A stretch of DNA of 64,000 nucleotides, taken from Callorhinchus milii (lineage: Eukaryota). The position numbers were made by a program. Shown here piece after piece: positions 9,001 to 12,000 of this stretch; position 1 is the stretch's first letter, and each line of letters begins with the position of its first letter. The DNA lies in NCBI RefSeq assembly GCF_018977255.1, contig NW_024705126.1:1-64000 (forward strand), given 5' to 3'.

Positions 9001-12000
9001 TGCCAGAACAGGATCAGCTGTTGATACTTTGCCTGTTAGGACTTCAGTTTTGTTGCCAATCAATGGCCATGAGCCAAAAGAAGATGCAGTGCTACAAGAA
9101 GTTCCTCAAAGTGACGCAACCTTAACGAGATCAAGCACAGCACTACGGATAACATTGTCAATGAGGCACATGAGTTGAAGGCCGAAGAGTTGTCCTGGTT
9201 CTATCGCTCTACAAATGGCCAAAATGGATTGAATGAAAATCGTCTGGTAAATATCATGCCACTGAACTATTTCCAAAATCGAATACTTGGCAGGAACCAT
9301 CGGTTTCAGCAAAACAATTACGTCTGCTATGCTCTCTCCATGTATGAGTTCTACAGGGTCAAGTCAAATATTTCGGTATGCACCAGAAGGATTAATCAAT
9401 ACTGCAATATGCGAGAGGATGTTCTTTTACATGTGTTGAGGTGTGAAGAACGACGCGAAGGCAAGTTGTGTAGGGGCTAACGCCAACTGATTATTATGGG
9501 CTTACGCCTAACTGTTTATTATGGGGTTACGCCTATCTTGGGGAAAGGGTTAACACAACTGTGGGTTAAGCTAATCTCCCCAGGGGAAAGGGTACTGGGA
9601 ATTCCCTATGCCTACCCGGCTTTCAGGCTCTTCCCTCAGCACTGACCGAGGGTTCAGCCAACTCGGCCAGCCGGGTAAAGTAGCCCCCTAGCCTGGCGCT
9701 ATTTCTCCCTTACCCTGGGTCCCTACTCCCCCACCCCTCACGATCATGGCTCCCGGTGAAGACCCCTAACATGTCACGCATTTGCTTCCTCATCACCCTA
9801 CCGGCAGGTCTGGCTGACGTCACTTCCTTTCATGGCGAGTGTGACATGACGTCACCACTCTACTCCTCAACATCACCCCCCGCCCCCCCCCGGGAAAAAA
9901 ACCCAGCCAACCCGGCTGCAACTACTCCGTGACCGGCCCCCCCCCTTCCCCCTGGCGGGAAGTCACGATGACAACGAACGCAAGTAACCCCTGAGCGTAG
10001 AAGCTTGACCGACCGCTAGAACAAACACAAATACAACATTAAGGTAGGCCGGTACAAGACAATGTCTGGCCATAGACACCACCCAGCCCTGCAAGCGGTG
10101 GTGACGGTGGGATGGAAGAGGCTGGCTCCACTGTCCGTCAGCGTACGCGCCCGCCCCGCGAGCGCGTGCCCGCCGCCGGGCCGCTTCCACGTGTGGCGTC
10201 AGCCGCTGGAGCCGGCGATGCACTATCCCGCCGGCGTAGGGCCACTGCTCCCTGTGGCGTCTGCCTCCGTAACCGGCGGTGTTCCGGGAGGAGACTGGGC
10301 CTCCACGGGGACCTCCTCTGGCAGGCCCGCAAACGGCGGTATTAACGGCGGTAGCTCTGTAGGTATACAGTGAGGGAAAAAAGTATTTGATCCCCTGCTG
10401 ATTTAGTACGTTTGCCCACTGACAAAGAAATGATCAATCTATAGTTTTAATGGTAGGTTTATTTGAACAGTGAGATACAGAATAACAACAAAAAAATCCA
10501 GAAAAACGCATGTCAATAATTTTATAAATTGATTTAAATTTTAATGGGGGAAATAAGTATTTGACCCCTTTTCAATCAGAAAGATGTATGGCTCCCAGGT
10601 GTCTTTAATATAGGTAACGAGCTGAGATTAGGAGCACACTCTTTAAGGGAGTGCTCCTAATCTCAGCTTGTTACCTGTATAAAAGACACCTGTTCACAGA
10701 AGCAATCAATCAATCAGATTCCAAACTCTCCACCATGGCCAAGACCAAAGAGCTCTCCAACGATGCCAGGGACAAGATTGTAGACCTACACAAGGCTGGA
10801 ATGGGCTACAAGACCATCGACAAGCAGCTTGGTGAGAAGGTGACAACATGATAATTGGTTTTTTTACCCTTCTATCTGGCAACAAAACTGACACCTTTTT
10901 ACAAAGAGTCATGTTTGCATAGACCGCAATACCAGCAGTCATAATACAAACAAAAGAACATAACTCTGATAATGTATGCACTGTCCTTGAAGTTGATTGG
11001 TCCACACCCCCGAGACAGCTTTCCTTAGAGCCTAGTCTCACATGGTGTTGGACCAGATGACGCCAACACCATGTGAGACTAGGCTAAGGAAAGCTGTCTT
11101 GGGTGTGGACCAATCAACTTCAAGGACAGTGCATACATTATCAGAGTTATGTTCTTTTGTTTGTATTATGACTGCAGGTATTGCGGTCTATGCAAACATG
11201 ACTCCTTGTAAAAAGGTGTCAGTTTTGTTGCCAGATAGAAGGGTAAAAAAAAACAATTATCATATTTTTACTGGCAAATGAGGTTCCCATAGTGAAGGTG
11301 ACAACAGTTGGTGCGATTATTCGCAAATGGAAGAAACACAAAATAACTGTCAATCTCCCTCGGCCTGGGACTCCATGCAAGATCTCACCTCGTGGAGTTG
11401 CAATGATCATGAGAACGGTGAGGAATCAGCCCAGAACTACACGGGAGGATCTTGTCAATGATCTCAAGGCAGCTGGGACCATAGTCACCAAGAAAACAGT
11501 TGGTAACACACTACGCCCTGAAGGACTGAAATCCTGCAGTGCCCGCAAGGTCCCCCTGCTCAAGAAAGCACATATACATGCCCGTCTGAAGTTTGCCAAT
11601 GAACATCTGAATGATTCAGAGGACAACTGGGTGAAAGTGTTGTGGTCAGATGAGACCAAAATGGAGCTCTTTGGCATCAACTCAACTCGCCGTGTTTGGA
11701 GGAGGAGGAATGCTGCCTATGACCCCAAGAACACCATCTCCACCGTCAAACATGGAGGTGGAAACATTATGCTTTGGGGGTGTTTTTCTGCTAAGGGGAC
11801 AGGACAACTTCACCGCATCAAAGGGACGATGGACGGGGCCATGTACCGTCAAATCTTGGGTGAGAACCTCCTTCCCTCAGCCAGGGCATTGAAAATGGGT
11901 CGTGGATGGGTATTCCAGCATGACAATGACCCAAAACACACGGCCAAGGCAACAAAGGAGTGGCTCAAGAAGAAGCACATTAAGGTCCTGGAGTGGCCTA

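What the first reader, a model, noticed from the sequence alone, without database searches (positions are those of the whole stretch)
10836..11306. Unexplained 445-bp fold-back insertion with a 13-bp TSD and an asymmetric tail
Seen: two ~200-bp near-perfect inverted arms, an 11-nt loop and a 30-nt unpaired tail, all bracketed by a 13-bp duplication of transposase sequence, with no poly(A) and no coding signal. Established: cut-and-paste MITEs have TIRs flush with mostly 2-11-bp TSDs, while long variable TSDs suggest target-primed retrotransposition or staggered-break repair. Inference: an unrecognised palindromic element or a snap-back/template-switch product. Inside a Tc1 transcript it would form long dsRNA that might feed small-RNA silencing.
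Basis: partly seen in the sequence, partly recalled or inferred. Interest (0 to 1): 0.65.

Follow-up and report, generated by a model that had tools for sequence, protein, structure and literature searches.

The report
Fold-back retroelement insertion inside Tc1
A dead Tc1 transposon in a fish- or frog-like olfactory-receptor region carries a real 445-base hairpin-shaped insertion whose shape (two inverted copies, a 30-base tail on one side only, a 13-base target duplication) is the known footprint of a Penelope-like retrotransposon, so it is probably ordinary rather than a new kind of element.

Summary
A 445-bp insert (10849-11293) sits in the transposase gene of a Tc1 element. It is bracketed by an exact 13-bp repeat, and two other Tc1 copies in the window carry that 13-mer once with no insert, so this is a true target-site duplication. 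One of those copies is a ~97% paralogue from a segmental duplication. The insert has two ~203-nt inverted arms (4 substitutions, 3-4 small indels), an 11-nt centre and a 30-nt tail on the right only. The tail is not filler: it base-pairs with the end of the right arm, and the left arm stops inside that stem-loop's loop. The palindrome alone has no flanking duplication, so a cut-and-paste MITE does not fit. Head-to-head truncated copies, a one-sided 30-40-bp tail, a variable duplication and no poly(A) are the published signature of Penelope-like elements. Their enzyme primes on both DNA strands from two start sites a tail-length apart. I favour that reading (about 0.5). No hammerhead motif, protein homologue or second copy was found, and the host genome could not be searched. 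A LINE/SINE cDNA snap-back is the main rival. The dsRNA/silencing idea is untested.

The parts
10365..12416 (+). Host Tc1/PPTN-like DNA transposon, copy 1, broken by the insert
   Evidence: Its TIRs are 158 nt at 94% (I2). HTH_Tnp_Tc3_2 and DDE_3 domains lie downstream of the insert. The intact paralogue at 29036-30172 has HTH_SB, HTH_Tnp_Tc3_2 and DDE_3.
10836..10848 (+). Left copy of the 13-bp target-site duplication
   Evidence: D8. The 13-mer is single in Tc1 copies 2 and 3.
10849..11051 (-). Left arm: the inverted copy, with no tail. Its own 3' end points left.
   Evidence: Its outer end corresponds to position 11263/4 of the right arm.
11052..11062 (.). 11-nt non-palindromic centre, the head-to-head junction of the two truncated copies
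   Evidence: (I5)
11063..11263 (+). Right arm: the copy that continues into the tail
11264..11293 (+). 30-nt one-sided tail, contiguous with the right arm
   Evidence: Its first half pairs with the end of the arm.
11228..11277 (+). Predicted stem-loop bridging the arm end and the tail (UUGCCAG...CUGGCAA plus GUAAAAA/UUUUUAC). The end point of the left arm falls in its A-rich loop.
   Evidence: -12.5 kcal/mol for the 66-nt stretch, z -1.73, 10 of 200 shuffles as good. For the 94-nt stretch: z -1.95, 8 of 200. The same stem appears in the 231-nt fold.
11294..11306 (+). Right copy of the 13-bp target-site duplication
   Evidence: D8
29254..29266 (+). Empty site in the paralogous Tc1 copy 2 (28783-30390)
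41964..41976 (+). Empty site in Tc1 copy 3

Best explanation
The insert is a retrotransposition product of the Penelope-like element (PLE) type. A non-palindromic source RNA, whose last ~240 nt correspond to 11052-11293, was copied into a staggered break 13 bp wide in the Tc1 transposase gene.

1. The bottom-strand 3'-OH primed reverse transcription at the distal start site, which is the end of the tail (11293).
2. The top-strand 3'-OH (...GACAACA) primed at a proximal start site 30 nt upstream, in the loop of a 3' stem-loop.
3. Both cDNAs ran about 200 nt and were joined head to head by a template jump. This left an 11-nt offset at the centre.
4. Filling in the stagger gave the 13-bp duplication.

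The result is a pair of heavily 5'-truncated, inverted pLTR-like copies with the 'tail' on one side only.

Shown: the anatomy, the duplication, the empty sites, and that arm and tail are contiguous. Inferred: the RNA intermediate, the enzyme family and the order of steps.

The insert killed this Tc1 copy and probably has no function. If transcribed, it would fold into a ~200-bp hairpin.
For: - The duplication is real. Both other Tc1 copies (2 of 2) have the 13-mer once and no insert. One of them is a paralogue inside a ~97% segmental duplication, so the insertion came after that duplication.
- The TSD brackets palindrome plus tail, not the palindrome alone.
- The tail pairs with the arm end, and the left arm ends in that loop. 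Arm and tail therefore come from one source, and the second copy starts at an internal site.
- Published PLE features match (passages and main text only). An inverted 5'-truncated copy lies adjacent and forms inverted repeats. A 30-40-bp tail is often present at only one end (PMC8557442). In A. vaga the pLTRs are 181-218 bp, the tail is 31 bp at the 3' end of one inverted pLTR, and TSDs are 8-10 bp (PMC3846280). The TSD length is variable because the nick distance varies (PMC8557442).
- The Poseidon protein cleaves and extends both strands, and RT starts at two adjacent internal sites in a stem-loop. The stretch between the two sites is the tail, a signature called unique to PLEs (PMC11167929).
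- Short oppositely oriented pairs of truncated PLE motifs are widespread (PMC4209133).
- Hammerhead-less PLEs (Naiads) share the tail and inverted structure and were found in fish.
- There is no poly(A), microsatellite or tRNA part.
- One arm difference is a CpG/CpA change, as expected of real mutation after insertion.
Against: - No hammerhead ribozyme was found. Rfam at E<=10 over 10830-11310 gave 9 weak hits, none of them a hammerhead. None appeared in the whole window at E<=0.05. None of the 19 CTGANGA matches in the window lies in the insert.
- No sequence homology to any PLE was shown. The 79-aa arm frame had no hit among longer proteins (16 candidates, 0 scored). It had only 2 hits among 1.84 billion representatives, both long repetitive proteins that look bacterial, with a multi-stretch match I judge spurious.
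- The arm frame carries a stop inside the tail.
- No other copy of the arm or tail exists in the 64 kb, so family membership and fixed tail boundaries are untested.
- The target is not AT-rich or ATT-like as reported for Poseidon, nor a microsatellite.
- The stem-loop is only modestly better than shuffles (8-10 of 200), and its loop is A-rich rather than AC-rich.
- No PLE RT or GIY-YIG domain was seen in the window's ORFs.
Confidence: 0.5

Rival explanations
1. A non-PLE target-primed retrotransposition event. A 5'-truncated LINE 3' end, a SINE or another RNA was copied by a LINE reverse transcriptase. The 3' end of its first-strand cDNA then folded back and copied itself (hairpin self-priming), stopping about 30 nt short of the start. 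The top-strand end annealed there by imperfect microhomology.
For: - It predicts the same product: a small central loop, an arm that stops short, a variable-length TSD, and contiguous arm and tail.
- There is 6-of-9 similarity between the target end GTGACAACA and the sequence the arm would have continued into (I7).
- A LINE RT fragment of L1/Tx1 type is present in the window, so LINE activity exists in this genome.
- Hairpin self-priming by reverse transcriptases and microhomology at LINE 5' junctions are established knowledge (recalled). The latter is also mentioned in PMC3846280.
Against: - There is no poly(A) or 3' microsatellite.
- Classic L1 twin priming inverts a different part of the RNA rather than the same part (recalled).
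- The one-sided 30-40-bp tail is described as not observed in LINE TPRT (PMC8557442).
- 6 of 9 matches in an A-rich context is weak.
- The arm has no similarity to the LINE fragment in the window.
Confidence: 0.24
2. A fold-back DNA transposon or MITE with ~200-bp terminal inverted repeats, moved by a transposase. The tail would be an internal or captured piece.
For: - The inverted arms are long and near-perfect.
- There is a clean duplication with empty sites.
- The window is rich in TIR elements.
Against: - The inverted repeats are not flush with the duplication. The two ends of the 445-bp unit (TGATAATT... and ...CCCATAGT) are unrelated.
- The palindrome alone has no TA, TTAA or 8-bp flanking repeat.
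- 13 bp is outside the TSD lengths I recall for eukaryotic cut-and-paste superfamilies (2-11 bp).
- There are no subrepeats in the arms.
- There is no second copy in 64 kb.
Confidence: 0.1
3. Capture of an extrachromosomal hairpin or palindromic DNA fragment during repair of a staggered double-strand break, with fill-in of 13-nt overhangs.
For: - The arm is single-copy within the window.
- There is imperfect microhomology at the left junction.
Against: - A 13-nt stagger needs a nuclease that makes it.
- The tail is structurally integrated with the arm rather than being filler.
- Templated insertions in end joining are usually far shorter (recalled).
Confidence: 0.08
4. An assembly or read fold-back artefact.
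For: - Palindromes are a known artefact of long-read libraries (recalled).
- Two of the indels between the arms lie in homopolymer runs.
Against: - An artefact would not create an exact 13-bp duplication of the target at a site that is intact in two paralogues.
- It would not add a 30-nt unique tail.
- The arms differ by 4 substitutions, including a CpG/CpA change.
Confidence: 0.03

Closest known systems
Penelope-like element insertions with inverted pLTRs and a 'tail' (Penelope/Poseidon, Neptune, Naiad; e.g. Pen2a_Av of Adineta vaga, PAc of Anolis)
   Same: - Head-to-head inverted 5'-truncated copies of about 200 bp.
- A 30-nt extension at the outer end of only one copy.
- A short TSD of non-fixed length, with an empty site.
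- No poly(A).
- The second copy starts inside a 3' stem-loop.
   Different: - There is no ORF between the repeats: only the two truncated ends are present.
- No hammerhead motif was found.
- No homology to a PLE protein or consensus was shown.
- The target is not AT-rich.
- The TSD of 13 bp is longer than the 8-10 bp listed for A. vaga.
L1 5' inversions by twin priming, and hairpin self-priming of cDNA
   Same: - Both target strands, or the cDNA itself, serve as primer.
- The product has an inverted 5' part inside one TSD.
- There is microhomology at the junctions.
   Different: - Twin priming inverts a different, upstream part of the RNA and keeps a poly(A) tail.
- Here both arms are the same ~200 nt, and there is no poly(A).
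Fold-back elements and long-TIR MITEs
   Same: The unit is almost entirely inverted repeat, it is non-coding, and it has a TSD.
   Different: - The ends are not inverted repeats of each other, because of the one-sided tail.
- The TSD length is unusual.
- The arms contain no subrepeats.

Membership tests
Penelope-like element (PLE) insertion | An inverted 5'-truncated copy adjacent to a direct copy, head to head | tested here: met
   The arms are 10849-11051 and 11063-11263, with the truncated ends at the centre. The feature is as described.
Penelope-like element (PLE) insertion | A 30-40-bp tail present at only one end of the insertion unit | tested here: met
   A 30-nt tail (11264-11293) lies on the right only. 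The feature is as described.
Penelope-like element (PLE) insertion | A target-site duplication of variable, short length | tested here: met
   The TSD is 13 bp, and 2 of 2 paralogous sites are empty. Variable length is stated. 8-10 bp is listed, so 13 bp is longer than those examples.
Penelope-like element (PLE) insertion | A hammerhead ribozyme motif in the pLTR (canonical clades; absent in Naiad and most Chlamys) | tested here: not met
   No hammerhead was found at E<=10 in 10830-11310. No CTGANGA occurs in the insert on either strand.
Penelope-like element (PLE) insertion | Sequence continuity with an element encoding a telomerase-like RT plus GIY-YIG endonuclease | not testable with these tools
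   The host genome is not available. There is no second copy in the window. The arm frame has no credible protein hit. No PLE domains occur in the window's ORFs.
Penelope-like element (PLE) insertion | Reverse transcription starts at two internal sites in a 3' stem-loop | tested here: inconclusive
   The left arm ends in the loop of a predicted stem-loop that bridges arm and tail. However, 8-10 of 200 shuffles fold as well, and this is a single copy.
Penelope-like element (PLE) insertion | Preference for an AT-rich (ATT) or microsatellite target | tested here: not met
   The target GAAGGTGACAACA is neither. The preference is described as moderate.
Cut-and-paste MITE / fold-back DNA transposon | Terminal inverted repeats flush with the TSD | tested here: not met
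   The unit's ends are unrelated, and the palindrome alone has no flanking repeat.
Cut-and-paste MITE / fold-back DNA transposon | Multi-copy family with constant ends and a superfamily-specific TSD | not testable with these tools
   There are 0 further copies in 64 kb. There were 0 hits for a 24-mer in the prokaryotic genome collection, which is not the right collection for this question.
LINE-1-type twin-priming inversion | A poly(A) or A-rich 3' end, and an inverted segment from a different part of the RNA | tested here: not met
   There is no poly(A). Both arms are the same sequence.

The most novel reading that the evidence does not exclude
The unit is not a one-off by-product. It would be a member of an undescribed family of short, hammerhead-less, non-autonomous retroposons that are propagated or repeatedly generated as ~200-bp hairpins by a fish or amphibian PLE or LINE. 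Such hairpins, landing inside transcribed transposons, would act as ready-made sources of hairpin RNA for small-RNA pathways.
Probability: 0.1. Interest if true: 0.55.

Novelty: new member of a known kind. Interest (0 to 1): 0.27.

Why it matters
It matters mainly for annotation. Short inverted pairs left by Penelope-like elements look like MITEs or assembly artefacts and are easily misfiled. This locus is a clean, datable example because empty paralogous sites sit in the same window.

If the PLE reading is confirmed, the two arm ends would mark in vivo the two reverse-transcription start sites that have so far been mapped in vitro for one lizard element. If instead it proves to be a LINE snap-back, it would document hairpin self-priming in vivo.

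Either way it inactivated one Tc1 copy. Any role in silencing is speculative.

Tried and rejected
- **Other copies in the window:** blastn of the 445-bp insert against the window (word size 7) found only 12-18-nt chance matches besides the insert's own two arms.
- **Outside collections:** an exact 24-mer from the arm had 0 hits in the prokaryotic genome-contig collection and 0 papers in full text. Neither collection holds the host genome, so these say little.
- **RNA families:** Rfam on the insert gave only weak miRNA-like hits, as any hairpin would (mir-29 at 29.8 bits against a cut-off of 46.7). There was no hammerhead, tRNA, 7SL, snRNA or rRNA. ARAGORN found 0 tRNAs.
- **Tandem repeats:** 0 in 10300-12500.
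- **Coding test:** the 79-codon open frame in the arm had no hit in the search for homologous proteins with the 'longer' setting. It had 2 hits in the 1.84-billion-representative search, which I reject as spurious matches to repeat units of long repetitive proteins that look bacterial. By my own estimate the open frame is about 0.13 likely by chance.
- **Hammerhead look-alikes:** I read CAGATGA at the centre and CTGATAA on the antisense strand by eye. Neither has the following helix II plus GAAA, so both were rejected.
- **Dating:** I hoped to tell snap-back (arms identical at birth) from two independent cDNAs. The arms show 4 substitutions in 199 positions, the duplicated flank 45 in 2801, and the Tc1 halves 18 in 484 and 21 in 1120. 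These counts are too small to decide.
- **7-nt match:** CCATAGT occurs in the tail end and at Tc1 11479-11485 (D2). I judged it chance, or a by-product of the internal similarity of the two HTH-coding parts.
- **Papers:** PMC522041 (Pyatkov 2004) is not held. What I say of it comes from citing passages. Supplementary figures of PMC11167929 and PMC8557442, which show tail boundaries and fish Naiads, could not be seen and may bear on the comparison.
- **Not human, and other limits kept:** I do not take the window for human. It has an intact-looking Tc1, young Gypsy-like LTR elements and olfactory-receptor ORFs, which points to a fish or amphibian. The N run at 50998-51027 was left as it is.

Full report
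**1. The observation**

The region was read directly and scanned for repeats.
- An exact 13-bp direct repeat, GAAGGTGACAACA, lies at 10836-10848 and 11294-11306. The neighbouring bases differ on both sides, so the repeat is exactly 13 bp.
- Between the two copies lie 445 bp (10849-11293).
- A gapped alignment of the two halves gives a left arm at 10848/9-11051, an 11-nt centre at 11052-11062 and a right arm at 11063-11263/4. About 30 nt (11264-11293) have no partner on the left.
- The arms differ by 4 substitutions and 3-4 small indels over about 199 aligned positions. The indels are in a T-run, a C5 run and an AG.
- As single-stranded DNA the region folds at -233.8 kcal/mol, against -50.6 +/- 4.7 for shuffles. 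None of 100 shuffles folds as well.

The description is therefore correct.

**2. Is the duplication real?**

The insert sits in a Tc1/PPTN-type transposon (10365-12416). Its TIRs are 158 nt at 94%, and transposase domains are present. The window holds two more copies of this Tc1, at 28783-30390 and at 41501-42291 plus 49019-49830. Both carry the 13-mer once and run straight through the site.

Copy 2 is not just another family member. A self-comparison shows that 1-12415 and 19169-30390 are a segmental duplication at 95-97% identity, and the two Tc1 copies share the same left flank. The 445 bp were therefore inserted after that duplication, and the insertion duplicated 13 bp of target. This rules out chance and makes an assembly fold-back very unlikely. 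One arm difference is a CpG/CpA change, as expected of real decay.

**3. What the anatomy says**

The palindrome alone has no flanking repeat of any length. Only palindrome plus tail is bracketed. The two ends of the 445-bp unit are unrelated, so this is not a transposase-type element with TIRs flush to its TSD.

The tail is not random filler. In RNA or DNA folds of the right arm plus tail, the first half of the tail pairs with the last part of the arm (UUGCCAG/CUGGCAA stacked on GUAAAAA/UUUUUAC, 11228-11277). The point where the left arm stops maps into the A-rich loop of that stem-loop. The stem-loop is only modestly better than shuffles (8 and 10 of 200 fold as well).

The simplest reading has two parts:
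- Right arm plus tail is one contiguous piece, at least 242 nt long, of a non-palindromic source.
- The left arm is a second, inverted copy of the same piece that starts 30 nt further in.

There is no poly(A), microsatellite, tandem repeat or tRNA-like part, and no Rfam family beyond weak hairpin look-alikes.

**4. Comparison with what is known**

This architecture is described for Penelope-like elements. I read passages, not whole papers, except for the main text of PMC11167929.
- Craig et al. 2021 (PMC8557442) report insertions that are highly 5'-truncated. Often an inverted 5'-truncated copy lies adjacent, forming inverted repeats. [quoted passage not shown] TSD length varies because the distance between first- and second-strand nicks varies.
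- The same paper reports that Naiads lack canonical hammerheads, share these structures, and occur in fish among other hosts.
- Arkhipova et al. [quoted passage not shown]
- Frangieh et al. 2024 (PMC11167929) found that the Anolis Poseidon protein cleaves and extends both DNA strands. Reverse transcription starts at two adjacent internal sites in a stem-loop, and the stretch between them is the tail.
- Cervera and de la Pena 2014 (PMC4209133) note pairs of truncated PLE motifs 100-700 bp apart on opposite strands.

The locus matches on arm length, head-to-head orientation, the one-sided 30-nt tail, a variable-type TSD, the absence of poly(A), and a second start inside a 3' stem-loop.

**5. Where the PLE reading fails or is untested**

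- No hammerhead was found in the insert at E<=10, and none anywhere in the window at E<=0.05.
- None of the 19 CTGANGA matches in the window lies in the insert.
- A frame stays open for 79 codons through the arm and is kept in both arms. That is not significant by itself, it hits a stop inside the tail, and it has no homologue. One search scored 0 of 16 candidates. One search gave 2 hits among 1.84 billion representatives, both long repetitive proteins that look bacterial, and I judge them spurious.
- The target is not AT-rich.
- No other copy exists in the window, and no PLE domains occur in the window's ORFs.
- The host genome was not available. The collections I could scan are prokaryotic (0 hits) or closed.

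Membership therefore rests on architecture alone.

**6. Mechanism and rivals**

I commit to retrotransposition of a 5'-truncated source with an inverted second copy. I put that at about 0.75 overall and PLE-type dual-strand priming at about 0.5.

The main rival, at about 0.24, is a LINE- or SINE-type TPRT event in which the cDNA snapped back on itself. It would have stopped at the stem-loop and been joined to the top-strand end through imperfect microhomology: GTGACAACA against GTAAAAATA, 6 of 9 (I7). An L1/Tx1-like RT fragment in the window shows that LINEs are present.

The other rivals are less likely:
- a fold-back DNA transposon (0.1), which fails the flush-TIR test;
- capture of a hairpin fragment at a staggered break (0.08);
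- an artefact (0.03).

Divergence counts cannot separate arms that were identical at birth from two independent cDNAs. The arms show 4 of 199, the duplicated flank 45 of 2801, and the Tc1 halves 18 of 484 and 21 of 1120.

**7. The dsRNA idea**

A transcript through the site would contain a hairpin of about 200 bp, which is a plausible Dicer or ADAR substrate by established knowledge. Nothing here tests whether it is expressed. Small RNAs from it would match the inserted sequence, not Tc1.

**8. Verdict**

This is a real, well-delimited insertion, most likely the ordinary footprint of a known class. It is a new member at most, of modest interest. One genome-wide BLAST would settle the question.

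I do not take the window for human.

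Noticed in passing
window 1-12415 and 19169-30390: A segmental duplication at 95-97% identity carries olfactory-receptor ORFs (7tm_4: 270-947 plus 851-1330, and 19464-20333) and the Tc1. A third receptor ORF lies at 38741-39730. The duplication ends exactly at the right end of the Tc1, and the right flanks of copies 1 and 2 are unrelated.
   Followed up: partly
window 41501-49830: The third Tc1 copy is split at 42291/49019 by a Gypsy-like LTR retrotransposon (42292-49018) on the minus strand. 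It has protease, RT_RNaseH and integrase domains. Its LTRs are about 576 bp with 3 substitutions in 573, so it is younger than the fold-back insert.
   Followed up: partly
window ~30390-35000, minus strand: A second, decayed Gypsy-like element lies directly right of Tc1 copy 2. It has Integrase_H2C2 and RT_RNaseH fragments and is 65-80% similar to the element at 43784-44267.
   Followed up: no
window 12420-14613: A 2.2-kb unit with 51-nt inverted ends (82%) abuts the right end of Tc1 copy 1. Its ORFs have no Pfam domain (I12, 13, 45, 53).
   Followed up: no
window 10596-10692, 29014-29110, 41732-41828: All three Tc1 copies have a 97-nt internal palindrome that matches Rfam mir-7558 at 61-69.5 bits, below the gathering score of 80. 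This is a transposon-derived miRNA-like hairpin.
   Followed up: no
window 16172-16510, minus strand: A reverse-transcriptase fragment (RVT_1, 24.6 bits, below the cut-off) whose motifs look like an L1/Tx1-type LINE by recall. No endonuclease part was detected nearby.
   Followed up: partly
window 36692-36811: A 5S-rRNA-like match over the full model length at 34 bits, just under the gathering score of 38. It is possibly a 5S pseudogene or a 5S-derived SINE head.
   Followed up: no
window 1463-3435 and 20633-21317: Paralogous copies of a TIR-bounded element have different lengths (1973 bp against 685 bp). One copy therefore gained or the other lost about 1.3 kb after the segmental duplication.
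   Followed up: no
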